The position numbers were made by a program, and so were the translations under genes. Positions 33,251 to 64,000 of a DNA stretch of 64,000 nucleotides are shown here, one piece after another. This stretch comes from Escherichia virus TH06: sequence record MT446386.1; one strand, given 5' to 3'. How positions within the stretch are numbered: the first letter of the stretch is position 1; the number at the start of each line of letters is the position of its first letter. The notes below the pieces were generated by a model. That model was not told where the DNA came from and did not search any database. It saw only the letters and a list, made by a program, of their open reading frames with translations.

Positions 33251-33279
33251 TTCTAACCTCCTTTTGTGGTCCCTTTAAA

Positions 33280-33498: not shown

Positions 33499-33590
33499 TT
33501 GAGTGTCTCCTATAAATTAACCTCTTGGGATATATTAGTTTCATTACTTACTAAGGGTACTTACTACTAAAGCCCCCGAAGGGGCTTATC

Positions 33591-35759
33591 TTACTTCTCT
33601 GCTAACTTAGCTTCTAGAACTTCAATACGTTTCAACAGGTCTTGAACAACTTGCATGGTGTCGAGGAGCATTGGAGCTGAGTCTAGCTCTTTCTGTTCTT
33701 GTTCTACACCGTCGTTGTCATGGAACTTACGAGTCTTAACATAAAGAGGTTCTACCTTTTCTGCTTGCTGTGCGATAATACCACGACGAGTTCTTCCTTG
33801 TTCGTCATTGTTGTACACGAATGATTTGAAGTCCAAACCTTTAATCGCACGAATTGCTTCATCAGGCGAGAGATCTTGAATGTTGTGTTTCAACCTTTCA
33901 TCTGACACAGGATTCATAGCAAGAGTATAAGTTCCGGTTGAACTTGGCTGCCAAGTGTAGTAGTAAATCTCGTTCCTGTTTGGTCGGAGAGTTAAACGAC
34001 AACCATATTTGTTGTCTTCATCTCCCGAAACATGCCAACAGGAATCAGCAAAAGATCCAGCATCATTGTGAATCATCCCTACATGGGTAGTAGTTTTGTA
34101 TCCACCTTGGGATGCTTGGGAAGCACTCAGTATAGAGTTAAAAGAGTAGTTAGCACCAACCCCTTGGTTGTCTATAGAAAACGTCCCTCTGCGACTTCCT
34201 GTTTCACTCCAAGACATCAATGTTCTAGACCGAGCAACATATCTATCAGAGTTCAGGGTTCCAGAATCGTCAAAAGCTAATTGCTTGGTAACTCCTTTGG
34301 TTTTATTATAAACATTGATAATCCCATAATAAGCTCCGTCGATATAAGCATCAGTTTGGAGCGTAGTAGAGGCTTCTACTTCTGAACCTATTTTATATTC
34401 AGAAACAACTGAACCGCTAGTTACCCTAGTTCCACCAGCAGGACGGTTTGCATCACTGTTAATAACTGACCAAGAGGTGTTAGCAGCAGTAAAACCACCA
34501 TGCGCACGAATAGTCCAAACACCTACAAAGTTACGGGTCAGAATCTCCTCAGTGGAGCGACCATAAATAGGACTGGAACGCGATGCGTCAAAGTTTGTGG
34601 ATATGTATTTACCTCCAGTCCCCACTGGAGCCACATCGTCTGTAGAGGTGATTGATTGAATTGCCCCGTCAGTCGCCACCTGCCCAGGAGCGGAGGCTAG
34701 TGTTACCATTGTGTGAGGGGACGCATATGTGATGTTCGGTGCAGCAGAATCAAACACTTGACCGTTTGCAGCAGAATTACCACCATCACCACGGCCATAT
34801 AAAGCTCTCAGTGACCCCTCTTGGATGCCATTTCGGTCAGGAACACGGAAAGTTGTTGTACCGTTTCCGGTAGAATACCTACCCCTCTGATAGATATTAG
34901 ACAACCAAAGAGAGTCTTCAATTGGGGATAGCAGTTGTGCATAAGCCCATAAATCTGGGTAGTCAGCACGATTCAAAAGCTGCCCATCCGACACAACCTC
35001 AAAAGCTGGGATGAAAGCTCGACTATCACGTAAGTGGAAATCACCAATACCAAAGTTAGAAATACCACTCATGGTAGGACCACCAGAACCACCACCACTA
35101 TTTCGGAGCTGTCTCAGTGTAACCGCATCATAATCTCCAACTGCATCAGGAACAGTAACGGGTTGAGTGAAGGTTACCTTCTGGGTAAGTTGTTTGATAT
35201 CAGAGTTAATCCCTGTACGAGTAACACCAATAGTCCGACCTTTGGAATCTTTGACATAAGAACCAATTGCAGCAAAAGGCAAATCCTCAATCTCTGGACG
35301 ATACCGTTTAGAATAGACCGGATATTTAGTTTCTACTCCAGAGTCGTTCTGGTCTACTACTTGAAGACGACCAGCAGAATGAATCTCTACACCTTGAACT
35401 GAAGAGGCATAGCTACCAATCTTGATTGAGTTATCGGGAGTAACCTTCATCATATCCACAGACTCTACACCATTAGCACCAGTAGATCGGAAAGGTGTAT
35501 CATTCACAACCCAAGGGTCTGCTCTGAATAAAGCACCAGACATAAGAGGTTGAATTGAATCTAACACGTAGTCCTTAGATGCACCTTCTGTTTTAGTTTG
35601 GTATGTAGCAGCTGCATCGGTTTTCTGTAAGTACTTATCAGTCAGATTCACAGCCCCTGCCTGACCATCTACTGTAGAAACACCAACAACTGCCGCATCT
35701 CTGGTCACAACTACGTGGGGCATCATTATGCCAGATTTGGGCATTAATTCTCTAGACAT
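33591..35759 (-). CDS. tail fiber/spike protein with C-terminal intramolecular chaperone (peptidase S74-like) domain
   Basis: C-terminal SDERLKHNIQDL...GIIAQQAEKVEP motif typical of autoproteolytic chaperone domains. Confidence 0.65.
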   Translation of the reverse strand: MSRELMPKSGIMMPHVVVTRDAAVVGVSTVDGQAGAVNLTDKYLQKTDAAATYQTKTEGASKDYVLDSIQPLMSGALFRADPWVVNDTPFRSTGANGVESVDMMKVTPDNSIKIGSYASSVQGVEIHSAGRLQVVDQNDSGVETKYPVYSKRYRPEIEDLPFAAIGSYVKDSKGRTIGVTRTGINSDIKQLTQKVTFTQPVTVPDAVGDYDAVTLRQLRNSGGGSGGPTMSGISNFGIGDFHLRDSRAFIPAFEVVSDGQLLNRADYPDLWAYAQLLSPIEDSLWLSNIYQRGRYSTGNGTTTFRVPDRNGIQEGSLRALYGRGDGGNSAANGQVFDSAAPNITYASPHTMVTLASAPGQVATDGAIQSITSTDDVAPVGTGGKYISTNFDASRSSPIYGRSTEEILTRNFVGVWTIRAHGGFTAANTSWSVINSDANRPAGGTRVTSGSVVSEYKIGSEVEASTTLQTDAYIDGAYYGIINVYNKTKGVTKQLAFDDSGTLNSDRYVARSRTLMSWSETGSRRGTFSIDNQGVGANYSFNSILSASQASQGGYKTTTHVGMIHNDAGSFADSCWHVSGDEDNKYGCRLTLRPNRNEIYYYTWQPSSTGTYTLAMNPVSDERLKHNIQDLSPDEAIRAIKGLDFKSFVYNNDEQGRTRRGIIAQQAEKVEPLYVKTRKFHDNDGVEQEQKELDSAPMLLDTMQVVQDLLKRIEVLEAKLAEK

Positions 35760-35799
35760 TTATTTCTCCTTAAAGCTCCCCGAAGGGAGCATTATTGTT

Positions 35800-38580: not shown

Positions 38581-38589
38581 ATTATCTCC

Positions 38590-39339
38590 TTATACACGAG
38601 AAGTACGAATACCATAAATATCAGGCAAGCTGCTCTGAAGTCGAGTCATGTTATTCGGAATTGCGATAGGTGAACCTGAGTACTCTTGTTTCTTATTCTG
38701 TTCTACCATTTCATCAAGGATAGCTTTTCCTAATGCTGACCATTTCTGAACACCATTATCATCTTGAACAAAGAGACAAGCATGACGTAGGGTGAAGTAC
38801 AGAAGAAGTTCTGGTGCTATAGTAAGAATAGTACTAGTATCTGTATCTTCATGGAATTCCGGTGGGTCTGCATAATAGCTAAGAATCACTGAGTTTTCTG
38901 CTGGAATCAAAGGGCTTCCATCATCAGGGTAGTACGGAGTATCTGCTTCGATGCTAGGGTAGAAAATGAAACGACTACCGAAACGAGCAAAGTTGACAGG
39001 TTGGTTATTCCAGTGAGATGGGTTAATTGTTCCATGCTGTCTACGATAGCTAATCTCTTCAGGAGAGGTTACTTGGAAGATTGTGCCATCTTTGGCTCTC
39101 ATCATCCATTGAGCTTCTAAGTAATCAGGAGGAATGTAAGCTACTCCATCTTTAATATCTAAATACACTTCTTTTTCCAGAGGAGGAATACGTAAGTTAC
39201 GATAAATCTCTTTCTCTGCAAAGTTAATAAAGTTTGGAATTTGATTAACAAATTCGTCATCGTCCCTATCTGCCCAGAGGGCCACGGCCTTCTTTAGCCA
39301 CCCATAGGTATTGATGGGGTATTGAACGTCAGGCAACAT
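38590..39339 (-). CDS. virion protein, possible head-tail adaptor (249 aa)
   Basis: Start moved to internal ATG after GGAAGGAGG; position between capsid and fiber genes. Confidence 0.35.
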   Translation of the reverse strand: MLPDVQYPINTYGWLKKAVALWADRDDDEFVNQIPNFINFAEKEIYRNLRIPPLEKEVYLDIKDGVAYIPPDYLEAQWMMRAKDGTIFQVTSPEEISYRRQHGTINPSHWNNQPVNFARFGSRFIFYPSIEADTPYYPDDGSPLIPAENSVILSYYADPPEFHEDTDTSTILTIAPELLLYFTLRHACLFVQDDNGVQKWSALGKAILDEMVEQNKKQEYSGSPIAIPNNMTRLQSSLPDIYGIRTSRV

Positions 39340-39841
39340 AGGATACCTCCTTCCAGTTTGTGCCATTGATTATCAGGCTTATTGTACTTGAAGAGACTCC
39401 AAACTTCCTAGCTAAAGCTCTAGCTCCGAACTGTCTGTCCCTCGGTTTATAGTTCTCTAAACAGAAAAGAACTTGTTCTTTAGTAAGCTTGGAATTAGGG
39501 TTATCCTCAAGATTCCTTGGTGTTGAGAGTTTTGTTTCATAAGCATGTACACAGTTTTCTTGTTGAGTACACCACTCTAGATTCTCAATCCTGTTGTCAT
39601 CTTTTATTCCATTCTTATGGTTGACATAGTCCTTCCCTTCTACTTTAGGAAGAAAGAGTTCAGCTATGACCCTGTGCTCTAGGTATGATTTCTTCTTGAA
39701 GGTTAGTACACGATATCCCTTATTATTAATACATCCAGCACGTTGCCTTTTCTGTTTATTGAATATATTACTCATAGACCAGAAAAGATGCCCTGTATTT
39801 GGGTTATATGTAAAAGCTCCTCTGAAATCTGGCATTGCCAT
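39329..39841 (-). CDS. HNH homing endonuclease
   Basis: HRVIAELFLP...VNHKNGIKDDNRIENLEWCTQQEN HNH motif; free-standing inside structural block. Confidence 0.6.
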   Translation of the reverse strand: MAMPDFRGAFTYNPNTGHLFWSMSNIFNKQKRQRAGCINNKGYRVLTFKKKSYLEHRVIAELFLPKVEGKDYVNHKNGIKDDNRIENLEWCTQQENCVHAYETKLSTPRNLEDNPNSKLTKEQVLFCLENYKPRDRQFGARALARKFGVSSSTISLIINGTNWKEVSYVA

Positions 39842-54135: not shown

Positions 54136-54240
54136 GTAAGACAGTTTAAATAAACATAAGGTGCTATCTTAACGGGTAGCGCCTTTTCTTTTATCAGTGC
54201 ATTGATTCAGTGCATTAATCAAAGAATTTAATCAAAGGTG

Positions 54241-54465
54241 ATGATCATGTTAATTACGCATACCACGATTTATAGGAATCTTGTCAACGGTCAACATTAC
54301 CGCCTATCTAAAAAGTATGGCGTTGAATGTAAATGTGTTATTACCGGTGAATGGTATCCGTCACCAATGAAGATTGAAACGTTGGAACGTGAAGCGATCA
54401 GCTATATTATCACGCAAGAAACAACGTTAGGCCGTATCTTAAGAAAGTTGGGATTGAGAAAATGA
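54241..54465 (+). CDS. hypothetical protein (74 aa)
   Basis: Track ORF, first ATG. Confidence 0.4.
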   Translation: MIMLITHTTIYRNLVNGQHYRLSKKYGVECKCVITGEWYPSPMKIETLEREAISYIITQETTLGRILRKLGLRK

Positions 54466-54961: not shown

Positions 54962-55405
54962 GTGGCTAAATCAAAAATCAGCATGAAGGGCGGGCGTTGT
55001 TTTGCTATCTCTGAACTGGAGAAAGAGAAGCCAAAGGCAACCAATCACGTCAGCAAGCGTAGTTTAAAACGTCGTGCTGCAAAGGCTGAGGCTGAATCTC
55101 ATGTTCCTTCTAGTATACCTAAGCGCGTAGGCCATCGCGTTCATCGTGCTGATGCGTTATTGTTAGCTGATCATAAACGATCTTTGTTACAGAGCGGGGG
55201 CGCTAAAACAGAAGAAGAGAAGAAGTTAGAAATCTTCTGTAATGGTCGCACCCGTGGTAAACAGAAGTTTAAGGGTAGCACGAAAGACCCGCAGGCTTTC
55301 CCTAAGACAAGCCAATGCGCACCTGATGTTTTCTACGCAGACAGTAAACATAAATGGGGCGTTGAGAAATACATTGACCCCATCAAAGAGGCAAGGGTTA
55401 AGTAG
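54962..55405 (+). CDS. basic hypothetical protein (147 aa)
   Basis: GTG start after AAGGAA; K/R-rich. Confidence 0.45.
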   Translation: MAKSKISMKGGRCFAISELEKEKPKATNHVSKRSLKRRAAKAEAESHVPSSIPKRVGHRVHRADALLLADHKRSLLQSGGAKTEEEKKLEIFCNGRTRGKQKFKGSTKDPQAFPKTSQCAPDVFYADSKHKWGVEKYIDPIKEARVK

Positions 55406-55422
55406 TAGGAATATAGCCCCTC

Positions 55423-55439
55423 TTTTAGTACTATGACGC
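55423..55439 (+). repeat. conserved 17-nt motif TTTTAGTACTATGACGC, copy 1
   Basis: Identical 17-mer also at 62143-62159; contains palindrome TAGTACTA; followed by a hairpin. Confidence 0.4.
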
Positions 55440-55484
55440 TCTTTCTGTAGCGTCGTGCCCTCTCCCCATTTGAAGATTCCGCAT

Positions 55485-55507
55485 AGCCGCCTTTGAGCGG
55501 CTTTTTG
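55485..55507 (+). terminator. rho-independent terminator
   Basis: AGCCGC-CTTTGA-GCGGCT followed by TTTTT. Confidence 0.55.
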
Positions 55508-55569
55508 CGTTGCTGTAAGTGCATTTGCGAGTGTATTTATAGCAACGGTCATGTGTTGCTTTCAGGTTT

Positions 55570-55596
55570 GCCCCGGCTACGGCTGGGGCTTTTTTA
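55570..55596 (+). terminator. rho-independent terminator
   Basis: GCCCCGGC-TACG-GCTGGGGC followed by TTTTTT. Confidence 0.65.
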
Positions 55597-55644
55597 TGCC
55601 CGTAAAACAGGAGGTATCAAGTTCTGATAACAACGGCCCAGCTA

Positions 55645-56034
55645 ATGTTGACATTGACTATTTATTATGAGGCAGGGAATCAGCCAACCGCATGTAAGGC
55701 TTTAGTTGCGGATACCGTAATAAATAGAATGGCACAACGAAAACTGACCGCTGAACAGGTGATAAGACAAAAGAACCAGTTTGAGTGGATTCCGGTACTA
55801 TTAAAACAGGAGAAACCTTATAAACGTTATGTAAAGCTGATTCGTGATAAAAATCCGATGACTAAGCAAGCCATTGGAGAAAGCGAGCGGCTAGCTAAAC
55901 GTGCCCTTAAGAAGAATTATGTTCCGCTTTATAGTGGGACTTACTTTCAGAGTAAGAGCGAAGGGGTGCCAAAATGGTATGCCAATCCTATGTATTGTGG
56001 TGATTTAGTGTTCGATAATAGCTCTAGGGAATAA
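55645..56034 (+). CDS. cell wall hydrolase, SleB-like (Hydrolase_2-type) domain protein
   Basis: LTLTIYYEAGNQPTACKALVADTVINRMAQ...QKNQFEW resembles the SleB-family N-terminal signature. Confidence 0.5.
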   Translation: MLTLTIYYEAGNQPTACKALVADTVINRMAQRKLTAEQVIRQKNQFEWIPVLLKQEKPYKRYVKLIRDKNPMTKQAIGESERLAKRALKKNYVPLYSGTYFQSKSEGVPKWYANPMYCGDLVFDNSSRE

Positions 56035-56233
56035 TCTCTAGTGCCAGATTTAACAAACTAAATTCCTTTATAAACCAACCACTTAGTAAATTTATTGAAA
56101 AAGATGGTAGTATTCTGGGACTATGGGTAATGCTCTGTATATAGACCCTTTGAAAATTTCTTAGAAAATAAGTTTACTAAATATAACTTACTTAAATAAT
56201 ATTACTTTTAATCTCTGATAAAGGGTAAATAAT

Positions 56234-56530
56234 ATGACTTTAGAGGTATATAAATTCCTTTTTGTAAGCTGTTTAACTATCAGCGTTATAGGGTTTATTG
56301 TTCTCAGAAACAAAGCAGCAAGCTGGGAGAGAATGTATAAATCTCTAGTCCGAGTGGATGAGATGTATAATGAGAAAGTTAAAGTAACACTTAATGATCT
56401 TATTATGCAAGTTGAAGACAGAAATAAGCGTCTTCAGAACCTCAACCATGAAGTATTACGACTTGCTCGTGCTAATGAAGACTTGCGAGTAGCTATTGCT
56501 AAGCAGCAGGAGATTAACAGTGAAAGTTAA
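56234..56530 (+). CDS. membrane-anchored coiled-coil protein (98 aa)
   Basis: N-terminal TM FLFVSCLTISVIGFIVL then heptad-like region. Confidence 0.45.
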   Translation: MTLEVYKFLFVSCLTISVIGFIVLRNKAASWERMYKSLVRVDEMYNEKVKVTLNDLIMQVEDRNKRLQNLNHEVLRLARANEDLRVAIAKQQEINSES

Positions 56531-56756
56531 TATTAAATCTGATCGTACAATGCTTCGATTAAATAACATGAAGCCGGGGGTTCTGTTTGAGCGTAAAGAA
56601 TCCCTTTACATCAGAACCGACACATTGTACGCAGACAATTATGTCAACTGTGTTGATGTGGTAACTGGAAAGCTCATGCCTTTTAAACGGGATGAAGTTT
56701 GCCAAGTACGCAGTGATCTCCATATAACCAACATAGAGGCTAAAGATGAAGATTAA
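56520..56756 (+). CDS. small protein, paralog family C member 1
   Basis: GTG 56520 after AGGAG gives MKVNIK N-terminus like other members; shares G.VF...Y...V.L.TG pattern. Confidence 0.45.
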   Translation: MKVNIKSDRTMLRLNNMKPGVLFERKESLYIRTDTLYADNYVNCVDVVTGKLMPFKRDEVCQVRSDLHITNIEAKDED

Positions 56757-57003
56757 TCTTGAAGTAAATGAACCGTCTTTGTGTGTTGGTGATCTCAAAC
56801 TTGGGGATGTATTCCAAATCAGGGAAACACGAGCAGATTTCTACATGGTTGTTCAGCTATTTACCTCACAGATTGAAGAGACCAAGCCTTCTGATGGGGG
56901 TTGTGTCGTCCTTAGTCTGACAAATAAGCAAGTCCTTAAACTTAGCTCGAAAAGCAAGGTTGTTCTTCTTCATGATGTTGTTATTACTAACAAGGGCAAG
57001 TAG
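56746..57003 (+). CDS. small protein, paralog family C member 2
   Basis: MKINLE..., LKLGDVFQ...FYMVV. Confidence 0.5.
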   Translation: MKINLEVNEPSLCVGDLKLGDVFQIRETRADFYMVVQLFTSQIEETKPSDGGCVVLSLTNKQVLKLSSKSKVVLLHDVVITNKGK

Positions 57004-57222
57004 ATGGAAATTAAAGTAGTTGATTATCCTAAATATGCAAATGCAGAAGATGTTAAAGGTGGTGATGTTTTCTCTTACGACAGACGTTTCTGGCTGATGT
57101 TAGAAGATAAAACTCCCGATGGTTTATGTAAGGCCGCCAATCTGAACAGCGGTTCTGTTGAAGTCTTCGGTCTATCAACCACTGTTATGCCACGCCCTGA
57201 TCTGTGTTTATCCCAAAAGTAA
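57004..57222 (+). CDS. small protein, paralog family C member 3
   Basis: MEIKVV..., VKGGDVFS. Confidence 0.5.
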   Translation: MEIKVVDYPKYANAEDVKGGDVFSYDRRFWLMLEDKTPDGLCKAANLNSGSVEVFGLSTTVMPRPDLCLSQK

Positions 57223-57230
57223 CATCGACT

Positions 57231-57333
57231 TATAGCCCTTGTGTTTATCAGAGGGCTATGTGAGGGTGTTCCTCATTAACTTATTAATTCAGGCATATGC
57301 CACACCGCTAGGGAGAGCTTGCTCGAACATCCG
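57231..57333 (+). repeat. conserved intergenic element, copy A (hairpin ATAGCCC/GGGCTAT, then GCTAGGGAGAG and CTCGAACATCCG)
   Basis: Paralogous to 62693-62804; both follow a gene stop. Confidence 0.45.
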
Positions 57334-57580
57334 GTGTTAGACTAAAACCTGTTCAATTTCGGTAGACTTTCCACTACGTAGGGGTACGTATTGGTTTGGG
57401 ATTCAGGAGATCTCCTAGGGGTAGGAGGTCTTCACCAGTTGGGATAAGAGATAGCTCTAGAACCTGAACTCTTAGGCAGAGAGGGTCGGCAATGAGTACG
57501 CGGTCAGAATTAGCCTCCTGACTAGGGCTATCCCTTATATCAACTGGCAATAATGCCTCCACTAATAAAGAGAGAACGTT

Positions 57581-57721
57581 ATGAAGAAGTCAACCAAGCG
57601 TATGAACCGTCCTGAGCGTATGGATGCAGTAGCAAATGGTGCACTGAAGATCGAGTCTGCCATGCTGCGTCTGATGGGTAACATCCGTAAGCGTCAAGGT
57701 GGTTGGGTTTACAATAACTGA
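57581..57721 (+). CDS. small basic protein (46 aa)
   Basis: ATG 57581, no stops to 57721, followed by terminator; weak RBS. Confidence 0.35.
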   Translation: MKKSTKRMNRPERMDAVANGALKIESAMLRLMGNIRKRQGGWVYNN

Positions 57722-57730
57722 TTTAATAAA

Positions 57731-57764
57731 AGGCTGCCTAGAAATAGGTGGCCTTTGTTGTTTT
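57731..57764 (+). terminator. rho-independent terminator
   Basis: AGGCTGCC...GGTGGCCT hairpin (with G-U pairs) followed by TTGTTGTTTT. Confidence 0.5.
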
Positions 57765-57887
57765 AATTAAGGGTCAACTCTTACTTAAACTAACAACGGG
57801 TGTATGGTATTGACAGGCATCGGCACGGAACTTGTTACCAACAAGGTTGGCGAATCAAGACCTCTGTGAAGCTCCGAAGAAATCAAG

Positions 57888-57914
57888 GCAGGTTCGACTC
57901 CTGCTCCCCGACCA
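57888..57914 (+). other. tRNA-like 3' fragment (perfect T-arm GCAGG-TTCGACT-CCTGC plus acceptor-like tail), no complete cloverleaf found
   Basis: GGTTCGACTCC T-loop consensus; no matching 5' acceptor strand upstream. Confidence 0.25.
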
Positions 57915-57934
57915 AATCAGCAAGAGGTGCTTAT

Positions 57935-58288
57935 ATGAGAAGCATGGTTAAAGATTGGGTAACTAAATCAGGTCTTCGTGCTGTGATTATGCACATGAAC
58001 GACTCCCACTTTTGTGGATATGTAGAGCTACCAGACAGCTTAAAACATAAAAACTTCACCGGATATAACGGGAATGAAGAAGTTTGTTATGTAAGTGTTC
58101 ATGGTGGTGTCACATGGCAAGATACCCTTGAAGAGATGGATGGTTTAGATACAATCGGATTTGATTGTGCCCATGCAGGTGATAAGACACGGTTCAACCC
58201 TAACGGGGTTCCAAGAACAGAAACGTTCTGCATCAACGAATGCGAACAAATGGCTGAACAACTAAGAGATCTCGAATCAAATGTCTAA
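57935..58288 (+). CDS. hypothetical protein (117 aa)
   Basis: Internal ATG 57935 of track ORF 57800 after AGAGGTG; track N-terminus overlaps the tRNA-like element. Confidence 0.45.
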   Translation: MRSMVKDWVTKSGLRAVIMHMNDSHFCGYVELPDSLKHKNFTGYNGNEEVCYVSVHGGVTWQDTLEEMDGLDTIGFDCAHAGDKTRFNPNGVPRTETFCINECEQMAEQLRDLESNV

Positions 58289-58457
58289 GCAAACAATCAA
58301 ACATACGCAAGCTGGTTACTCTTATATCAACTCTCCTTGTTGTGGTGCTCGTGTGAATCTGGTTAAGGAAGAGGTTCGTATCGTTCAGCGTGGCGCTACT
58401 GTTGTCCGTTCATGCTGTGTCTGTGGTAATGACATTTTTATCAAAGGTAAAGTATGA
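58281..58457 (+). CDS. small Cys-rich zinc-ribbon-like protein (58 aa)
   Basis: ATG 58281 overlaps upstream stop; SPCCG...SCCVCG. Confidence 0.4.
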   Translation: MSKQTIKHTQAGYSYINSPCCGARVNLVKEEVRIVQRGATVVRSCCVCGNDIFIKGKV

Positions 58458-58705
58458 AAAACTTCCAAGCTGCACCAATCACGAAAGTTATTTCAGTTGA
58501 TGATGTGATGATGACTGTTCCTCTGAACACTCGTTACATTGCAATTGACAAGATGGGTTATGTATGGGCTTGGAAGATTAAGCCTAGCTATAACGCACTG
58601 TTCGACGAGTTTGTTTGTACTGGTACGTATAGCCCTACGTTCTTGGGTTTGTTTGGAGAGTTCGAAGGTCAGTATAAAATCATCACTCTCCCTGCTTGTG
58701 CTTGA
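58454..58705 (+). CDS. hypothetical protein (83 aa)
   Basis: Track ORF. Confidence 0.45.
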   Translation: MKNFQAAPITKVISVDDVMMTVPLNTRYIAIDKMGYVWAWKIKPSYNALFDEFVCTGTYSPTFLGLFGEFEGQYKIITLPACA

Positions 58706-58712
58706 GGTTAGT

Positions 58713-58877
58713 ATGTTCAAGTGGTTTAAACGTCTATTCCATCTGCACGATTGGGTAATTCTCGAGAAGTATACACTAAAGATCACTGATGATTATGGTG
58801 GTACGAAACATAAAGGTTTACGTTATATCATGCAGTGCAAAACATGTGGTTGTATCACCAAGCGGGATATGATCTAA
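58713..58877 (+). CDS. small protein (54 aa) with C-terminal CxxC
   Basis: Internal ATG 58713 of track ORF 58539 after GAGGT. Confidence 0.4.
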   Translation: MFKWFKRLFHLHDWVILEKYTLKITDDYGGTKHKGLRYIMQCKTCGCITKRDMI

Positions 58878-58885
58878 ATAATTCT

Positions 58886-58961
58886 GCGCTCTTAGCTCAA
58901 TGGATAGAGCAGTAGCCTTCTAAGCTATTGGTTACAGGTTCGAGTCCTGTAGGGCGCACCA
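58886..58961 (+). tRNA. tRNA-Arg (anticodon UCU)
   Basis: 76-nt cloverleaf: acceptor GCGCTCT/AGGGCGC, D-arm GCTC/GAGC, anticodon stem GTAGC/GCTAT with loop CTTCTAA, T-arm ACAGG-TTCGAGT-CCTGT, encoded CCA. Confidence 0.8.
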
Positions 58962-59055
58962 CATTTAGGGCTAGTATGGGTGCGGCACCAGAGTTAGTGT
59001 ATCCCTGTTGAGGCAAGTGCTTTTATAACAGTGGGAATTACTTTCTTAGTGAGCT

Positions 59056-59082
59056 TCTGGTTCGATTCCAGATAGTCCACCA
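59056..59082 (+). other. tRNA-like 3' fragment (T-arm TCTGG-TTCGATT-CCAGA plus acceptor-like tail)
   Basis: GGTTCGATTCC T-loop consensus directly downstream of tRNA-Arg; no complete cloverleaf found in the preceding 115 nt. Confidence 0.25.
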
Positions 59083-59101
59083 AATCTAATAGGAGGTAAT
59101 T

Positions 59102-59401
59102 ATGAGTTGGGGTGGTGTAATATCCTTAATCTGTATCTTCCTTGTCTGTGTGGCCCTTACAGGCTGCGTACAGAGCCGCCCTGATGGGTGGTGTGCAGTA
59201 GCAGTGGATGGTATTTGTGTATCTCGCTGGCATTCAGGAAACAAGATTCCTAGTGGTGAGATTGATATGCGCTACAACGGGGCAACCTGCTCTAATGCTA
59301 ACCCTTCTATCAACGAAGAGAAGTCTACGCCAGACAATGTTGTGATCGATACAGCGTTGTGGTGTGGCGGTTCTGTAACAACAACCGGTAAGGAGTGGTA
59401 A
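59102..59401 (+). CDS. Cys-rich lipoprotein (99 aa)
   Basis: Signal peptide with lipobox LTGC (MSWGGVISLICIFLVCVALTGC); strong RBS AGGAGG. Confidence 0.55.
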   Translation: MSWGGVISLICIFLVCVALTGCVQSRPDGWCAVAVDGICVSRWHSGNKIPSGEIDMRYNGATCSNANPSINEEKSTPDNVVIDTALWCGGSVTTTGKEW

Positions 59402-59402
59402 T

Positions 59403-59564
59403 GTGACTATTGAAGAACTCATTAGAACTCTTGAAAACTTATCTGTTACTTGTGGTCCAGATGCTATCGTCTACATCGAAGAACCTTCAGGGAATGAATA
59501 CCCTGTGAAAGAGGTTCTTGAGTACTCAGTAGGAGATCTTTCATCAGTAACCCTAAGACATTGA
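59403..59564 (+). CDS. small hypothetical protein (53 aa)
   Basis: GTG start after AAGGAG; fills gap. Confidence 0.3.
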   Translation: MTIEELIRTLENLSVTCGPDAIVYIEEPSGNEYPVKEVLEYSVGDLSSVTLRH

Positions 59565-59571
59565 GGTGTAT

Positions 59572-59820
59572 ATGACAGCTCATTATTGGAATACAAAGAA
59601 GCTTCTTGAAGAGATGGCTGGGGGTAGTAAGTTCCAGTTAAACTCCATGCTTCGAATGGATGCCCGCTCTTTACGTTTCCAAGTAAAGATTGGTAACTTC
59701 AGTGATGGACTTTATTATACCTTGAAAGAAAGGATTAAGAAGACTCACTTCATCATATATGGACTCAAACCGAGAACATATGTTAACTACATGTATTGGG
59801 ATACATGCTACGATAATTGA
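59572..59820 (+). CDS. hypothetical protein (82 aa)
   Basis: ATG 59572 after GAGGTG. Confidence 0.45.
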   Translation: MTAHYWNTKKLLEEMAGGSKFQLNSMLRMDARSLRFQVKIGNFSDGLYYTLKERIKKTHFIIYGLKPRTYVNYMYWDTCYDN

Positions 59821-59827
59821 GGTTATT

Positions 59828-60049
59828 ATGTTATTTGAAGCTAAGCAAACATTACCAGTAGTTCCTTTGTCTACACTTCTTAGTGGGAGTGCTTTTAGAC
59901 ATGATAATGGTTTTTGGATTAAGGGCGACCAAGAGGTTGGAGGGTATATTACCTGCATCAACATCTGCAACGGCGTTGTTGACGGATTTCGTCCAGCCGC
60001 TGAAGTCACTCCTCAATCCAACGCAAAGGTTGTAGGTTTAGTTTACTAA
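59828..60049 (+). CDS. hypothetical protein (73 aa)
   Basis: Internal ATG 59828 of track ORF 59759 after GAGG. Confidence 0.4.
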   Translation: MLFEAKQTLPVVPLSTLLSGSAFRHDNGFWIKGDQEVGGYITCINICNGVVDGFRPAAEVTPQSNAKVVGLVY

Positions 60050-60058
60050 GGAGCCTGT

Positions 60059-60232
60059 ATGAGTTGTTTTGGTGGCGGTGAAGTAGATGACGATGATGAC
60101 ATGGAATCCAACGGTACATGCCCTGATTGTGGGTGTGAGACATTTGATGGGGTGTCAGTATATCCTGCCTGTAGTTACTCACCAGTGATCTGTAAAACAT
60201 GTGGAGATCAGCCTTGTGATCAATCTTGTTAA
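60059..60232 (+). CDS. small Cys-rich acidic protein (57 aa)
   Basis: ATG after TAAGGAG; CPDCGC...CKTCGDQPCDQSC. Confidence 0.4.
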   Translation: MSCFGGGEVDDDDDMESNGTCPDCGCETFDGVSVYPACSYSPVICKTCGDQPCDQSC

Positions 60233-60241
60233 GAGAATCTT

Positions 60242-60373
60242 ATGACTGAAGAATTTTTAGAGTGGTTTAGTGACACCTTCAAAGAATACCTATTCACTCC
60301 AGAAAGTTTAGAAGAGTTGAAAACCTACACTTGGTTGGCTTGGAGAGATAGCCGACGAAAAATGAATAAGTAA
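60242..60373 (+). CDS. small hypothetical protein (43 aa)
   Basis: ATG 60242, open to TAA 60371-60373; weak RBS. Confidence 0.3.
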   Translation: MTEEFLEWFSDTFKEYLFTPESLEELKTYTWLAWRDSRRKMNK

Positions 60374-60384
60374 GAGACGATTAA

Positions 60385-60642
60385 ATGGGTTTACTTGATA
60401 TTTTTATCTCAGTTTACTTTATTGGAGTATTCCTCTCTGTTTTAGTGCTGAAACTGCTATACAAGAAAGGTCTACTAAAAGGGGTCATTACAACAGAGTC
60501 TACCAGCTCTGAACCTGATGAGATGATGGTTGTGCTCTTAATTGTGTTGTGGCCTATCTCAATACTGGCAGGAGTTTTTTATCCAATAGGTTTGCTTCTG
60601 TTTAAAGCATATGACGCAGTTATGCATTTTATCTTTAAGTAA
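60385..60642 (+). CDS. small membrane protein with two TM helices (holin-like topology)
   Basis: Two hydrophobic segments separated by a charged loop. Confidence 0.45.
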   Translation: MGLLDIFISVYFIGVFLSVLVLKLLYKKGLLKGVITTESTSSEPDEMMVVLLIVLWPISILAGVFYPIGLLLFKAYDAVMHFIFK

Positions 60643-60932
60643 TATCGTGAAGGATTCTTACGAGAGTCCTTTGAGATAGGACTTCAGATCTCCTATCAAA
60701 CTAACATTCATGTAACTAGCCCATAAGGGCGTTACCCTTTAATAACCCAGCCCACTAAGGGGGCGGGAGTTTAGTGCTGGATTGGCTTTACGCTTATTCC
60801 TACAAAGGCAACCGATTGTTAGATCTTACATGCAATATTAACTAATAGGATAAGGGAGGATTCGTCCCCTCCCCCTATTTTATTGAATCTTTATCTAAGC
60901 AAGTCTTACATAAATATTTAATTGGAGGATGT

Positions 60933-61244
60933 ATGAAAGCTCGAAGAACTATATGGACTCCGATGCAGATTGAAAATCTTCGGAGACTAATCAAAGAGTA
61001 CTCGGTTCAAGAAGTTGCTCAGATTATGAATGTAACGGAGAATGCAGTTAACACAGCTTGTACTAAATTCGGAATATCAAGAGCTTCAGTCCGAGTTAAA
61101 TGGTCTGAAGAAGAAGATCAGTTCCTTATCCGTAATGCTGGGTTCATGCCTATTCAGAGAATGGCTGACATGCTCGGTAGAAGTTATGCTGCTGTACAGA
61201 ACAGGGCATGTATGCACCTTAATATTAGCCTCAAACTTAAATAG
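60933..61244 (+). CDS. DNA-binding protein with two tandem HTH-like repeats
   Basis: Internal repeat W...E.L...I.E-S.QEVAQIMNVTENAV / W.EEED.FL......P.QRMADMLGRSYAAV. Confidence 0.4.
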   Translation: MKARRTIWTPMQIENLRRLIKEYSVQEVAQIMNVTENAVNTACTKFGISRASVRVKWSEEEDQFLIRNAGFMPIQRMADMLGRSYAAVQNRACMHLNISLKLK

Positions 61245-61252
61245 GAATCAAT

Positions 61253-61501
61253 ATGAAGATTACTCACAAGAAAGAAGAAGTGTCCACGGTTGATATCAAC
61301 TCTCTTCCTAGTGGAGCAGTATTTAAATTCCCTGAGAGTTCTACTCTCTATGTCAAAGGGTCTGTGTCTGAAAGTCCTAATGTAACCGTTAACTCCGATC
61401 GAGCAATCACTCTTCGTCTATCTGATGGTAACGTAACAGCCCCTTCTATCTGGTGCCGAGTTGTCCCTGTATCGGCAGAACTTTTGGTGGATAATACATA
61501 A
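61253..61501 (+). CDS. small protein, paralog family C member 4
   Basis: MKITHKK..., LPSGAVFKF. Confidence 0.5.
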   Translation: MKITHKKEEVSTVDINSLPSGAVFKFPESSTLYVKGSVSESPNVTVNSDRAITLRLSDGNVTAPSIWCRVVPVSAELLVDNT

Positions 61502-61746
61502 TGAAAATCATCCCAAAGAAAAAGGATAATACGGTACGATTGGAAACAATCATTCCCGGAAACCCTTTCGTGGTTCAGAACGGAAGTGCCTCTCCTCAGT
61601 ATTACATGAGGGTTGAAAATGCTTCTGGTAACATTCGTATAGCCAGTGGTTGGGTTCCTGTGGTAAACCTTTCCACAGGTGTGTTATCTGTTAAAGGTCT
61701 TGATGATCAGGTAGAAATGATTCGTATGTCAGTGGTTCAGGAGTAG
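61501..61746 (+). CDS. small protein, paralog family C member 5
   Basis: MKIIPKK..., translationally coupled (TAATG). Confidence 0.5.
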   Translation: MKIIPKKKDNTVRLETIIPGNPFVVQNGSASPQYYMRVENASGNIRIASGWVPVVNLSTGVLSVKGLDDQVEMIRMSVVQE

Positions 61747-61751
61747 TGCAT

Positions 61752-62000
61752 ATGAGCATTATTAACATTAAAGTTAAAGACAAAGAGGAAAAAATCCTCC
61801 GCGTCAGAGATCTAAATATGTCAGATGTGTTCACTCTCCAAGAGTGCCAAAATCAAAAGGTTTATATGATGACAGCTAAAAGCAGGGGTTGTCAACCTGC
61901 TGGAGCTGTTAACCTAGGCACTGGAGAACTACGTGTCATCTCTGGTGATATGGTTGTTGGTGAGAAGTTTATTAAGGCTGAAATCATCTTAACTTCGTAG
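61752..62000 (+). CDS. small protein, paralog family C member 6
   Basis: ATG 61752 after CAGGAG; MSDVFTL...VNLGTGELRV. Confidence 0.5.
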   Translation: MSIINIKVKDKEEKILRVRDLNMSDVFTLQECQNQKVYMMTAKSRGCQPAGAVNLGTGELRVISGDMVVGEKFIKAEIILTS

Positions 62001-62142
62001 GAAAACAAATGAGACGTAAAGCATATTCTTATGACGATATGATTAACCAGAAAGGCTTCGGTCAACGACAGCCTGACGGTTCAATTATCTGGTTCGTAAA
62101 CGGACAGAAAAAGGTAGCTAAATAGGCTCTCTTCTCTCCTCC

Positions 62143-62159
62143 TTTTAGTACTATGACGC
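62143..62159 (+). repeat. conserved 17-nt motif TTTTAGTACTATGACGC, copy 2
   Basis: Identical to 55423-55439; followed by hairpin TGCGTAG...CTACGCA. Confidence 0.4.
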
Positions 62160-62231
62160 CTCTCTGTGGGCGGCCCAATTTGCGTAGGGAATTCCCTCTA
62201 CGCAGCCATAACTTTTTAAGGAATTTCCCCT

Positions 62232-62465
62232 ATGTCTAAAGTAAGCGCAATTGATGCAATCCGTCAACCATTCCAGTTCCAATCTAAATCAACCCAAACC
62301 TTCAGTGAGCCTAAGCAAATTCGCTTGGGCGGCACAGAGAAGACTGTGTTTGATCTGGCTAAAAACAAGAGCGTTACTGTAGTTGATGGTGGCACTCTGG
62401 TTAACGTTTCCCATCGCATCCGCACTGGCAAAACTGCCAAAGATCGTGCTAAGAAAGGCGAGTAA
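62232..62465 (+). CDS. hypothetical protein (77 aa)
   Basis: Track ORF. Confidence 0.45.
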   Translation: MSKVSAIDAIRQPFQFQSKSTQTFSEPKQIRLGGTEKTVFDLAKNKSVTVVDGGTLVNVSHRIRTGKTAKDRAKKGE

Positions 62466-62680
62466 TGATAACACTTGTGTCGATCGTTTACAGAATACAC
62501 TACCGTCTAGACAAAGGTAAAACCTATAAGTGCAAGAGTAAGACAGGCAATAGATGCTCTGTAGAAAACAACTCTGGTCAATGGGTGGATGTACCTTGTT
62601 GTTGGTTCAGGAAAGACTTGACTAACAAAGAAATTGACGAAATCCTTAGTGATGGTTTTGTAAAATCAAGTGATTTTTAG
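62465..62680 (+). CDS. hypothetical protein (71 aa)
   Basis: Track ORF, coupled (TAATG). Confidence 0.45.
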   Translation: MITLVSIVYRIHYRLDKGKTYKCKSKTGNRCSVENNSGQWVDVPCCWFRKDLTNKEIDEILSDGFVKSSDF

Positions 62681-62692
62681 TTGTAGTAACGC

Positions 62693-62804
62693 CTATAGCC
62701 TTCTTCGGAGGGCTATGTGAGTTATTCTGACTCAACTAACCTAATCTTGATATATTTCCCGTATGGGGCCGATGCTAGGGAGAGGAACATTCCTCGAACA
62801 TCCG
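62693..62804 (+). repeat. conserved intergenic element, copy B (hairpin ATAGCC/GGCTAT, then GCTAGGGAGAG and CTCGAACATCCG)
   Basis: Paralogous to 57231-57333. Confidence 0.45.
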
Positions 62805-62915
62805 TCGGATAGATATTTTAAGAGCAGGTTATCCACAGATATTGGGTAATATCTTTTTGTGTTTAAAGCTTGACTCTTTTCGGAGAGTCCTTTTTTAAAT
62901 TCAACGAGAGGAAAT

Positions 62916-63068
62916 ATGTCTAAATTAGATTTAAAACTGCTAGCAGCAGCGGTAGTGATTTGTGCACTAGCACTGGTAACGCAGAGAACATCTGGATTTA
63001 TTCAGTGTTTCTTTTCTGGGCAATCCACTTATCAGTGGGTTATTGACGAGTGTAAACAACAGGAGTAA
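62916..63068 (+). CDS. small membrane protein (50 aa)
   Basis: ATG after GAGAGGAAAT; N-terminal TM LLAAAVVICALALV. Confidence 0.35.
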   Translation: MSKLDLKLLAAAVVICALALVTQRTSGFIQCFFSGQSTYQWVIDECKQQE

Positions 63069-63070
63069 GT

Positions 63071-63433
63071 ATGAATACACGTCCCATCAAGGGCAACGTT
63101 AATATTGAAACTCTGAACAAGGTTGCATCAAACCTCGGTGGAATGTCCAACGATGAGCTTGAGCAAGAACTTGCTTGGATTGCAAATGGTATCAAAGTTG
63201 CTAAAGGTAAGATTGCTCGTGAGCAAAGCAACATGAAAGCTCACAAGTATGTCATCCGTCATGCAAACATGTTACCAGAACGGGTTGTACATCTTGCCCG
63301 TAAAAGCTACGCAGACGCAAAGAAAGCTCTGGAAGAAGCTACTTTCCAGAAGCATCAATTTATGAACAACTATCGAAACTTCCGAGATATTCTTTATATT
63401 CGTAAATCGATTGAGTTGATTAAAAACCAATAG
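63071..63433 (+). CDS. hypothetical protein (120 aa)
   Basis: Track ORF. Confidence 0.45.
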   Translation: MNTRPIKGNVNIETLNKVASNLGGMSNDELEQELAWIANGIKVAKGKIAREQSNMKAHKYVIRHANMLPERVVHLARKSYADAKKALEEATFQKHQFMNNYRNFRDILYIRKSIELIKNQ

Positions 63434-63444
63434 AGGTTGGTATA

Positions 63445-64000
63445 ATGTTTCCAGTAACATTAGAAGATACTGAAGGTAATGTTTTAACGGTCAACCCCCC
63501 TTGTTATGGGTTCCTTCAACTTCGCAACTATAATGGCGGCGTTGATGAAAACGACGATGAAGATGATGACTACTTCGACCCTAACATGTATGAGGCAACT
63601 CATGGATGGAATATGCACGTTCGAGTGTGGCATGAAGAAGCCAACGTTCGTAGTGCTGACGGTGAAGAGTTCTTGTTAAGCCGAGAGATGGATATGTGTA
63701 AAATCAAGCATATCTGGAACTCCGGAACTCACATGAAGATGTTAGGTTTTAGACGTTGGCGTGATGAAAAACCTGTATCCGCAGCTTTAGGTTGGGGTGC
63801 TATTGATTACGAAGGCGAGCTTAAAAACAACATTGAACGTTGGAATGACAAAAACCCTGAACATCGAACCACACCTCGTGCTGTACTGGAAGCTATGGAA
63901 GCATTTGTGGACAAAGATCGTCCCTCCTGTTTACGCTGGCACGAAAAAGGTTTTATGGGGGTAGCAACTGAGAACATCCCTGCTGATCGCTGTCTGTTCT
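63445..64000 (+). CDS. hypothetical protein, 3'-partial (runs off the window end)
   Basis: ATG 63445 after AGAGG; frame open to position 64000. Confidence 0.45.
   Translation, partial: MFPVTLEDTEGNVLTVNPPCYGFLQLRNYNGGVDENDDEDDDYFDPNMYEATHGWNMHVRVWHEEANVRSADGEEFLLSREMDMCKIKHIWNSGTHMKMLGFRRWRDEKPVSAALGWGAIDYEGELKNNIERWNDKNPEHRTTPRAVLEAMEAFVDKDRPSCLRWHEKGFMGVATENIPADRCLF

What the first reader, a model, noticed from the sequence alone, without database searches (positions are those of the whole stretch)
56520..62000. Six-member family of small paralogous proteins in two triplets (56520-57222 and 61253-62000)
Six ORFs of 72-85 aa, arranged as two translationally coupled triplets about 4 kb apart, share an N-terminal MK(I/V) start, a G(D/A)VF motif near residue 20, a conserved aromatic, and a later V.L.TG segment. 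Each triplet is followed within a few hundred bp by a copy of the same conserved intergenic element. Expanded, diversified small-protein families in phage early regions often target host factors or defences; the function here is unknown.
Basis: seen in the sequence. Interest (0 to 1): 0.6.

Follow-up and report, generated by a model that had tools for sequence, protein, structure and literature searches.

The report
Expanded small-barrel early phage protein family
This phiEco32-like coliphage carries seven very diverged copies of a tiny barrel-shaped early protein from a huge, unnamed and unstudied phage protein family; what the copies do is untested (most likely they bind different host proteins), and members repeatedly sit next to a conserved folded RNA.

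Summary
The window is a Kuravirus (phiEco32-like podophage), and the ORFs lie in its early-gene arm.

- **Family size.** The six ORFs are true but very diverged paralogs (14-26% identity). A seventh member lies between the triplets at 59828-60049. Relatives carry 7-10 copies.
- **Real genes.** All seven are under purifying selection (dN/dS 0.04-0.39).
- **Variability.** Slots A2, M, B1 and B3 are among the most variable genes in the region, held by divergent alleles (51-62% aa) or missing. Flanking genes are 90-100% identical.
- **Fold.** AlphaFold models (pLDDT 85-87) give an SH3-like small beta-barrel.
- **Wider family.** An exhaustive profile search finds 1,173 clusters (50% identity), including N4 gp21 and the immediate-early PaP3 ORF65. 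None has a Pfam, NCBIfam, PADLOC or PDB match, and none has a known function.
- **Intergenic element.** It is a four-hairpin structured RNA of 112-121 nt with two copies per genome. It is absent from Rfam and conserved as far as Salmonella phage 7-11, where it also directly follows a family member.

Best reading, inferred and not shown: these are diversified early binding modules aimed at host proteins. An RNA-binding role is the main rival. Interest is moderate.

The parts
56520..56756 (+). A1, 78 aa (GTG start), ortholog of phiEco32 gp115
   Evidence: ORF. GGAG RBS. phrog_16423 E 4e-49 with cross-hits to phrog_6570, 7832 and 7431. Leave-one-out E 2.7e-6. dN/dS 0.05-0.21.
56746..57003 (+). 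A2, 85 aa, ortholog of phiEco32 gp114; a variable slot
   Evidence: phrog_9955 E 1e-36. Leave-one-out E 2.5e-5. Only 54-58% aa identical in phiEco32, Bas90, NJ01, YF01 and Paul. 61-77% nt identity against 90-100% in the flanks. dN/dS 0.09-0.25.
57004..57222 (+). A3, 72 aa, ortholog of phiEco32 gp113; last gene before RNA element copy 1
   Evidence: phrog_6570 E 2e-32. AlphaFold pLDDT 87.1 with a five-strand core. Absent in YF01 and Paul. dN/dS 0.04-0.10.
59828..60049 (+).
   Evidence: phrog_6570 E 8e-24. Family HMM E 3e-23. ATG with GAGG RBS. 56-61% aa identical in most relatives, 93-99% in MN05 and TH38. dN/dS 0.12-0.19.
61253..61501 (+). B1, 82 aa, ortholog of phiEco32 gp97; a variable slot
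   Evidence: phrog_7832 E 3e-27 and phrog_6570 E 1e-3. Weakest leave-one-out result (E 7e-3) but still the top non-training hit. Missing in EC.W14-3 and TH38. dN/dS 0.07-0.08.
61501..61746 (+). B2, 81 aa, ortholog of phiEco32 gp96; a conserved slot
61752..62000 (+). B3, 82 aa from ATG 61752, ortholog of phiEco32 gp95; a variable slot
   Evidence: phrog_12612 E 6e-42. AGGAG RBS before ATG 61752. 51-60% aa identical in MN05, NJ01, Paul, YF01 and TH38. dN/dS 0.20-0.39.
57228..57339 (+). Structured RNA element, copy 1 (four hairpins; helix 4 encloses a 7x7 internal loop, CUAGGGA / GAACAUC, and an inner hairpin)
   Evidence: A covariance model built from copy 2 alone finds it full length, E 1.2e-7. 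The MFE fold has the same architecture as copy 2. 96-100% identical in 8 relatives. No Rfam match.
62691..62811 (+). Structured RNA element, copy 2; a terminator-like hairpin follows 61 nt downstream (62872-62889)
   Evidence: Pattern and model matches. 97.6% of cells paired against 36-48% when partners are slid; 8 pairs changed on both sides. Full-length homolog in Salmonella phage 7-11. Terminator scan.
56234..56530 (+). 98-aa leader gene of the A array (phiEco32 gp116-like, labelled 'DNA helicase' in some records); its end overlaps A1
   Evidence: ORF. Annotation in relatives. Preceded by the 98-99% conserved intergenic region 56035-56233.
60933..61244 (+). 103-aa leader gene of the B array (phiEco32 gp99-like, labelled 'D5-like transcriptional regulator' in the records)
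   Evidence: ORF. Annotation in relatives. Preceded by the 96-100% conserved intergenic region 60643-60932, which holds a terminator-like hairpin at 60854-60873.

Best explanation
**Shown.** The window is a Kuravirus. Its early arm encodes seven diverged paralogs (A1-A3, M, B1-B3) of a 70-85 aa stand-alone protein predicted to fold as an SH3-like small beta-barrel. The family belongs to a very large, unannotated superfamily found mostly in virulent phages, which includes N4 gp21 and PaP3 ORF65. All seven copies are maintained by purifying selection, yet several array slots are swapped for divergent alleles, lost or gained between close relatives.

**Inferred.** The conserved residues (G20, F23, an aromatic about 8 residues later, the L-x-T-G turn, V61) build the barrel. 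The surface and the length-variable loop between strands 2 and 3 differ between paralogs. Each copy is therefore most likely a non-enzymatic binding module made immediately after infection. It would latch onto a different host protein (a takeover target or an immunity component) and block or redirect it. Array diversification would track differences between hosts.
For: **Identity and location.**
- 89-97% nt matches to Kuraviruses.
- Synteny with phiEco32 gp113-115, gp104 and gp95-97.
- That arm is the experimentally early class and is thought to serve host takeover (PMC8948821, PMC9965538, PMC4281155).

**Paralogy.**

**Real genes.** dN/dS 0.04-0.39 in 18 ortholog pairs where dS could be estimated, and an RBS before each start.

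**Fold.**
- Two independent models, pLDDT 85.5 and 87.1.
- Foldseek probability 0.99-1.0 to PWWP and Tudor domains.

**Superfamily.**
- 1,173 clusters at E<=1e-3, nearly all 67-90 aa and matched full length.
- N4 gp21 E 2e-17 and PaP3 ORF65 E 2.5e-10.
- PaP3 ORF57-71 are immediate-early, expressed under chloramphenicol (PMC4707531).

**No enzymatic signature.** Only five near-invariant positions: M1, two glycines and two hydrophobic residues.

**Charge.** The family is mostly acidic (median pI 5.1, 6% above 8), which argues against general nucleic-acid binding.

**Accessory-gene behaviour.** 7-10 copies per phage. Slots A2, M, B1 and B3 are at 61-77% nt identity or absent, while flanking genes are at 90-100%.
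Against: - No member of the whole superfamily has a known partner or phenotype.
- There are no hits to any defence or annotated family, so the target class is pure inference.
- SH3-like barrels such as L2, KOW and PWWP often bind nucleic acids.
- B2 and B3 are basic (pI 9.2 and 8.7).
- A family member sits directly upstream of the conserved structured RNA in several Kuraviruses and in phage 7-11. That would fit an RNA-linked role.
- Within ortholog groups selection is purifying, with no sign of positive selection. The variation is allele replacement, which also occurs for genes unrelated to arms races.
Confidence: 0.5

Rival explanations
1. The proteins bind RNA or DNA. At least the members next to the structured RNA bind it, for example to control stability, processing or translation of the early transcript, or as part of a small ribonucleoprotein. 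The family would then be a set of nucleic-acid-binding small barrels, like KOW, L2 or Sso7d-type domains.
For: - Gene-then-element adjacency recurs: A3 before copy 1 here; a member before copy 2 in EC.W14-3, TH38 and ECBP2; gp112 before the element in Salmonella phage 7-11, which belongs to a different family.
- B2 and B3 are basic.
- One cellular protein fuses five repeats, rich in K and R, to a SprT-like domain.
Against: - Two thirds of sampled family members have pI below 6 and only 6% above 8.
- A3, the member next to copy 1, is acidic (pI 4.9).
- Most family members in other phages (N4, PaP3, Vibrio phage) have no such RNA nearby; the model finds none in the N4, PaP3, Pa223 and L002 loci searched at E<=0.01.
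- In the window the slot before copy 2 is held by an unrelated ORF (62465-62680), so the adjacency is not obligatory.
Confidence: 0.2
2. The paralogs work together as a hetero-oligomer. Adjacent, translationally coupled copies would assemble into one multi-barrel complex, with a single function rather than seven.
For: - Overlapping or abutting genes favour stoichiometric synthesis.
- About 13 of the 150 best superfamily hits are two-domain fusions of 125-162 aa, and one protein has five repeats. This is a 'Rosetta-stone' hint that neighbouring copies act in cis.
- A tandem pair also occurs on an unrelated phage contig (L002 9767-10219).
Against: - Array composition is not fixed. A3 or B1 can be missing and extra copies inserted, which a defined complex would tolerate poorly.
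- Many phages (N4, PaP3, the Vibrio phage) carry only one clear member.
- Fusions of tandem duplicates arise trivially.
Confidence: 0.12
3. The similarity is compositional, or the ORFs are not expressed genes.
For: Pairwise identity is only 14-26% and pairwise phmmer E-values are weak.
Against: - Profile-level recognition with controls.
- Cross-hits to independently built PHROG profiles.
- Two confident AlphaFold models with the same fold.
- dN/dS 0.04-0.39.
- Full-length homologs in more than a thousand clusters.
Confidence: 0.02

Closest known systems
Escherichia phage N4 gp21 and Pseudomonas phage PaP3 ORF.65 (both uncharacterized)
   Same: Sequence-level members of the same superfamily (family HMM E 2e-17 and 2.5e-10). 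They have the same size, the MKI start and the G-x-x-F, aromatic and L-x-T-G pattern. They are also structural hits in BFVD. PaP3 ORF65 is an immediate-early gene (PMC4707531).
   Different: They are single copies in their genomes rather than arrays of 7-10. No function is known for either, so they add breadth and timing but no mechanism.
SH3-like small beta-barrel domains: ribosomal protein L2 C-terminal domain, PWWP and Tudor 'royal family' domains, KOW domain of EF-P/eIF5A
   Different: There is no detectable sequence relation. Only two conserved aromatic positions exist, so there is no aromatic cage. There is no KOW glycine-lysine signature. The proteins are stand-alone and mostly acidic, with an extra N-terminal strand pairing with the C-terminal strand in the B2 model.
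Small early 'host-takeover' ORFans of virulent phages, e.g. LUZ24 gp4 (Mip, inhibits MvaT; PMC4635203) and phiEco32 gp79 (binds host RNA polymerase; PMC12276001)
   Same: Small, early-expressed and non-enzymatic, encoded in the most variable arm of the genome. This is the functional class the best explanation proposes.
   Different: Those are unrelated singletons. gp79 is not a family member: the HMM finds no hit in the phiEco32 stretch that contains it. Here one fold has been expanded into an array and is shared across many phage groups.
T4-type PeSL cassettes (early promoter plus stem-loop repeats that flank small ORFs in hyperplastic regions and promote modular shuffling; Arbiol et al. 2010, recalled from my own knowledge, not checked here)
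   Same: Highly conserved short non-coding repeats with hairpins sit next to hypervariable small early genes, and the neighbouring genes are exchanged between relatives.
   Different: - There are only two copies per genome.
- The element is long (112-121 nt), with four helices that keep pairing through compensatory changes, which points to selection on RNA structure.
- Only copy 2 has a sigma-70-like match (9 of 12).

Membership tests
Kuravirus early small-protein PHROGs (phrog_16423, 9955, 6570, 7832, 7431, 12612) | Full-length profile match | tested here: met
   Each window protein matches its own PHROG at E 3e-27 to 4e-49 and cross-hits sister PHROGs. All are listed as 'unknown function'.
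Superfamily that includes N4 gp21 and PaP3 ORF65 (unnamed) | Significant full-length match to a profile built from the family, in both directions | tested here: met
   The profile of 139 diverse members scores the seven window proteins at E 2e-19 to 2e-14, N4 gp21 at 2e-17 and PaP3 ORF65 at 2.5e-10. An exhaustive search finds 1,173 clusters.
SH3-like small beta-barrel fold | Five-stranded, strongly bent antiparallel barrel of about 60 residues | tested here: met
Tudor/PWWP 'royal family' | Aromatic cage of three or four conserved aromatic residues that reads methyl-lysine or methyl-arginine; Pfam profile match | tested here: not met
   Only one near-invariant aromatic (F23) plus one conserved Y/W position. 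No Pfam hit in 139 members.
KOW / EF-P N-terminal domain | Match to the Pfam KOW or EFP_N profile | tested here: not met
   1 of 139 members gives a sub-threshold EFP_N hit (E 0.014). There are none for the window proteins.
Known anti-phage defence proteins (PADLOC-DB) | Profile match | tested here: not met
   No hit at E<=0.1 for the seven proteins or N4 gp21. No anti-defence library was available, so membership in a known anti-defence family could not be tested directly.
phiEco32 gp79-type RNA polymerase binders | Sequence relation to gp79 | tested here: not met
   The family HMM finds no hit at gp79 (L007 2602-2850) although that stretch was scanned.
Rfam RNA families (for the intergenic element) | Covariance-model match | tested here: not met
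   A permissive scan of 55000-64000 returns only the tRNA and two chance-level hits elsewhere.
Intrinsic terminator (for the intergenic element) | GC-rich hairpin followed directly by a T run | tested here: not met
   Neither copy is reported by the terminator scan. Separate terminator-like sites lie downstream at 57729-57756 and 62872-62889. In phage 7-11 the annotated terminator lies about 48 nt after the element.
T4-type PeSL mobile regulatory cassette (for gene plus element) | Early promoter plus stem-loop, repeated many times between small ORFs | tested here: inconclusive
   Hairpins are present. A sigma-70-like match occurs only in copy 2 (62727-62756, 9 of 12). There are only two copies per genome.

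The most novel reading that the evidence does not exclude
The unit 'small-barrel gene followed by the four-hairpin RNA' is a conserved functional module shared by two phage families (Kuravirus and Salmonella phage 7-11). In this reading the barrel protein and the RNA act together as a phage ribonucleoprotein, or as a 3'-UTR-derived regulatory RNA with its dedicated binding protein, which reprograms the host early in infection. The rest of the array would be diversified derivatives of that RNA-linked ancestor.
Probability: 0.12. Interest if true: 0.75.

Novelty: new variant of a known kind. Interest (0 to 1): 0.5.

Why it matters
Most early genes of virulent phages are unexplained ORFans. Here, seven such 'hypothetical proteins' in one phage, and the matching genes in N4-like, LUZ24/PaP3-like, Vibrio and many metagenomic phages, collapse into one fold family that no domain database describes. 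One structure and one identified target would therefore annotate more than a thousand protein clusters.

The Kuravirus arrays give a natural experiment. Conserved and hypervariable slots sit side by side in phages that are available in the BASEL collection. Those phages are reported to be unusually resistant to restriction-modification systems, with no known inhibitor (PMC11990801).

The linked structured RNA is a candidate new phage RNA family with a clear test: end-mapping and binding assays.

Tried and rejected
- **Domain and structure libraries.** Pfam on the seven proteins, on ten distant members and on all 139 alignment members; NCBIfam; PADLOC; and a PDB sequence profile search all gave nothing meaningful.
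- **The search for related loci.** The run with the broad alignment failed because no stretch was conserved enough.
- **Word-indexed search.** The search with the broad profile returned almost only Kuravirus proteins.
- **LUZ24 lead.** The Pseudomonas homolog (Pa223 gp007) occurs in only four Bruynogheviruses, so I could not link it to any of the 13 early proteins screened in LUZ24. No functional transfer is possible.
- **Literature.** Searches for Kuravirus anti-defence work, N4 gp21 and PaP3 ORF65 found no functional study. The only item is a speculative ORF65-rpoS expression correlation.
- **RNA alignment.** MAFFT plus RNAalifold on the two element types misaligned the first hairpin and was uninformative. 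It was replaced by a covariance-model alignment.
- **gp79.** A relation to phiEco32 gp79 was rejected.
- **Terminal repeat.** The SU10 terminal-repeat motif is not in the window.
- **Further members.** Two different HMMs found no further family member in the other 631 ORFs of the window.


Full report
**What the window is.** Region 56200-62300 matches Kuravirus genomes (phiEco32-like C3 podophages such as EC.W14-3, SkaterBoy_Bas90, SU10, NJ01 and TH38) at 89-97% identity. The finding lies in the arm syntenic with phiEco32 genes 95-116. Published work assigns that arm to the early class and describes it as the most variable part of these genomes, presumed to serve host takeover (PMC8948821, PMC9965538, PMC4281155). 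All genes here run on the + strand, in line with the positive GC skew of 50-64 kb.

**Checking the observation.**
- The six ORFs are present.
- Each start has a Shine-Dalgarno-like sequence 6-10 nt upstream. For B3 this favours ATG 61752 over GTG 61746.
- Neighbouring genes overlap by 11 nt or 1 nt, abut, or are 5 nt apart. This fits coupling but is not proof of it.
- Identity between members is only 14-26%, and pairwise phmmer is borderline.
- I therefore tested homology with profiles. In leave-one-out searches against all 638 six-frame ORFs of at least 40 aa in the window, the omitted member was always the best hit outside the training set (E 1.6e-8 to 7e-3; best unrelated ORF E 0.015-0.42).
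- A profile of triplet A alone finds B3, B2 and M, in that order, ahead of any unrelated ORF.
- Independently built PHROG profiles cross-hit between members.

The paralogy is real.

**A seventh member and copy-number variation.**
- The profile searches revealed a seventh member, M (59828-60049, ATG with GAGG RBS). It falls in the same PHROG as A3.
- Two different family profiles found no further member in the window.
- Scanning the homologous region of eight relatives gives 7-10 members per phage. phiEco32 has gp115, 114 and 113; weakly gp109; gp104; weakly gp98; and gp97, 96 and 95. Bas90 and NJ01 have ten.

**Are they genes?**
- For 18 ortholog pairs where dS could be estimated, at 53-96% amino-acid identity, dN/dS is 0.04-0.39. 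All seven are under purifying selection.
- A conservation profile shows the family slots are the variable spots of the region. A2 is 61-77% nt identical in six of eight relatives. M is 64-68% in six. B3 is 64-71% in five. B1 is divergent or missing in four, and A3 is missing in two.
- Flanking genes are 90-100% identical.
- The non-coding stretches 56035-56233 and 60643-60932 are 96-100% identical.
- Slots A1, A3 and B2 are usually conserved.

The pattern is replacement by divergent alleles plus gain and loss, not rapid point substitution.

**Fold.**
- AlphaFold2 with family alignments gave confident models for B2 (pLDDT 85.5, pTM 0.75, six strands) and A3 (pLDDT 87.1, five-strand core).
- Foldseek agrees, with modest scores (E at least 0.1, TM about 0.5).
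- This is a generic SH3-like small barrel with no close solved relative.
G-D-V-F is strand 1, the aromatic lies in strand 2, and V-N-L-x-T-G is strand 3 plus the tight turn.
- The gap-rich part of the alignment, where paralogs differ most in length, is the loop between strands 2 and 3.

**Breadth of the family.**
- An exhaustive HMMER search of 1.84 billion representative proteins found 1,173 clusters at E<=1e-3. Nearly all of the best 150 are 67-90 aa and match end to end.
- About 13 of the best 150 are two-domain fusions.
- One Tenacibaculum MAG protein has a SprT-like domain followed by five repeats.
- Sequence-level members include N4 gp21, PaP3 ORF65, Pa223 gp007 (in the first 3 kb of the genome) and a Vibrio phage protein.
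- BFVD adds structurally similar uncharacterized proteins from Proteus, Morganella, Serratia, Erwinia, Dickeya, Klebsiella, Providencia and Bacillus phages.
- PaP3 ORF57-71 are immediate-early, expressed in the presence of chloramphenicol (PMC4707531).
- No member hits Pfam, NCBIfam, PADLOC or any PDB sequence. All related PHROGs are 'unknown function'.
- I found no paper that describes the family or the paralogy.

**Mechanism.** Nothing is shown experimentally for any member, so this part is inference.
- The few near-invariant positions are M1, two glycines, F23 and V61. They look like fold determinants rather than a catalytic or ligand site.
- The proteins are too small for enzymes.
- They are early, and hypervariable by slot.
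- The sampled family is mostly acidic (median pI 5.1, 6% above 8).

I therefore favour diversified protein-binding modules that neutralise or redirect host proteins (confidence about 0.5). Kuraviruses are reported to resist restriction-modification systems without any known inhibitor (PMC11990801). That is a lead, not evidence.

The main rival is nucleic-acid binding. It is suggested by the structural neighbours, the two basic paralogs (B2 and B3) and the RNA linkage described next. A hetero-oligomer reading is suggested by the coupled genes and the fused two-domain relatives.

**The intergenic element.**
- An exact bipartite pattern (GCTAGGGAGAG, a 4-8 nt spacer, CTCGAACATCCG) occurs twice in the window, with 0 expected by chance.
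- Both copies fold on the + strand into the same four-hairpin architecture. The last helix encloses a symmetric 7x7 internal loop (CUAGGGA / GAACAUC) and an inner hairpin.
- A covariance model built only from copy 2 of eight phages recovers copy 1 full length in every Kuravirus (E about 1e-7) and nothing else in the window.
- On that alignment 97.6% of cells pair, against 36-48% when partners are slid. Eight pairs in four helices change on both sides.
- There are caveats. The alignment is fitted to the model, and the compensatory changes stem essentially from one divergence, copy 1 against copy 2.
- Independent support comes from Salmonella phage 7-11, in a different family (Grimontviridae). 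It gives a full-length 79-bit match in which helices 3, 4 and the inner hairpin differ in sequence but keep their pairing.
- There is no Rfam match.
- The element is 93-100% identical among Kuraviruses, more conserved than most neighbouring genes.

**Linkage between gene and RNA.**
- Copy 1 starts 5 nt after the last gene of array A, whichever gene that is.
- Copy 2 lies 690 nt after B3 in this window, directly behind an unrelated 71-aa ORF. In EC.W14-3, TH38 and ECBP2 that slot holds a family member.
- In 7-11 the element directly follows gp112, which is also a family member and is most similar to those copy-2-adjacent proteins (28-29% identity, E about 2e-6).
- In 7-11, and at copy 2 here, a terminator follows about 50-60 nt downstream. 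The element is therefore a 3'-end feature of an early transcription unit.
- It could be an mRNA-stabilising or processing structure, a 3'-UTR-derived small RNA, or a conserved anchor for cassette exchange. None of these was tested.

The finding is not a new kind of system. It is a previously undescribed, very large SH3-like family of small early phage proteins, expanded into hypervariable arrays in Kuraviruses and linked to a new structured RNA. I rate it of moderate interest (0.5).

Noticed in passing
window 57228-57339 and 62691-62811; L025 6266-6395 (Salmonella phage 7-11): The 'conserved intergenic element' is a structured RNA candidate of 112-121 nt with four hairpins. It has two copies per Kuravirus genome and one in phage 7-11, no Rfam match, compensatory changes in four helices, and a conserved 7x7 internal loop (CUAGGGA / GAACAUC).
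   Followed up: yes
window 57340-57756: After RNA copy 1 comes a stretch of about 240 nt with no plausible gene, 83-100% identical in relatives. It is followed by a very basic 46-aa ORF (57581-57721) and a strong terminator-like hairpin (57729-57756). It may be one long non-coding or leader region.
   Followed up: partly
window 56035-56233 and 60643-60932: The two intergenic regions in front of the leader genes of arrays A and B are 96-100% identical across eight relatives, more conserved than the genes around them. The second holds several hairpins and a terminator-like site (60854-60873). They are probably the control regions of two early transcription units.
   Followed up: partly
window 56332-56339: The core of the phiEco32 gp36 sigma-factor promoter motif (AATGTATA) occurs inside the gp116-like ORF, about 190 nt upstream of A1. 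There are 7 matches in the window against 2.7 expected (4 of 100 shuffles reach 7).
   Followed up: no
window 54238-54465, 58281-58457, 62465-62680: Three small cysteine-rich ORFs show weak mutual similarity (phmmer E 4e-3 to 7e-3). They may be a second, zinc-ribbon-like paralog family in the same early arm. The third occupies the slot before RNA copy 2, which holds a barrel-family member in other Kuraviruses.
   Followed up: no
window 56234-56530: This 98-aa ORF is labelled 'DNA helicase' in several GenBank and RefSeq records (phi32_116, Bas90_0114). It is far too small for a helicase, with a hydrophobic N-terminus and what looks by eye like a heptad-rich coiled-coil tail. The label is probably an annotation error.
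   Followed up: no
P0122 (Tenacibaculum sp. MAG, 478 aa): A cellular protein joins a SprT-like metalloprotease domain (PF10263, E 6e-9) to five tandem, lysine- and arginine-rich repeats of the same small-barrel domain. It is the only clear link between the family and an enzymatic domain.
   Followed up: partly
L014 (PaP3 33000-39600), L007 (phiEco32 gp80-87), L002 12592-17211: The glutamine amidotransferase, amidoligase and COOH-NH2 ligase gene cluster lies downstream of the early arm in phiEco32, PaP3 and an unrelated 51-kb metagenomic phage contig. All three also carry barrel-family members, which suggests a shared ancestral early/middle module.
   Followed up: no
window 58886-58961: A tRNA-Arg (anticodon TCT) sits between the two arrays. 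In relatives this spot also collects HNH endonuclease insertions (YF01, Paul).
   Followed up: no
window 1-64000: GC skew and ORF orientation change at about 18 kb and about 50 kb, consistent with a rotated (circularly permuted) assembly. If so, the physical genome ends with the terminal repeat should lie near 48-50 kb, but the SU10 terminal-repeat motif was not found.
   Followed up: partly
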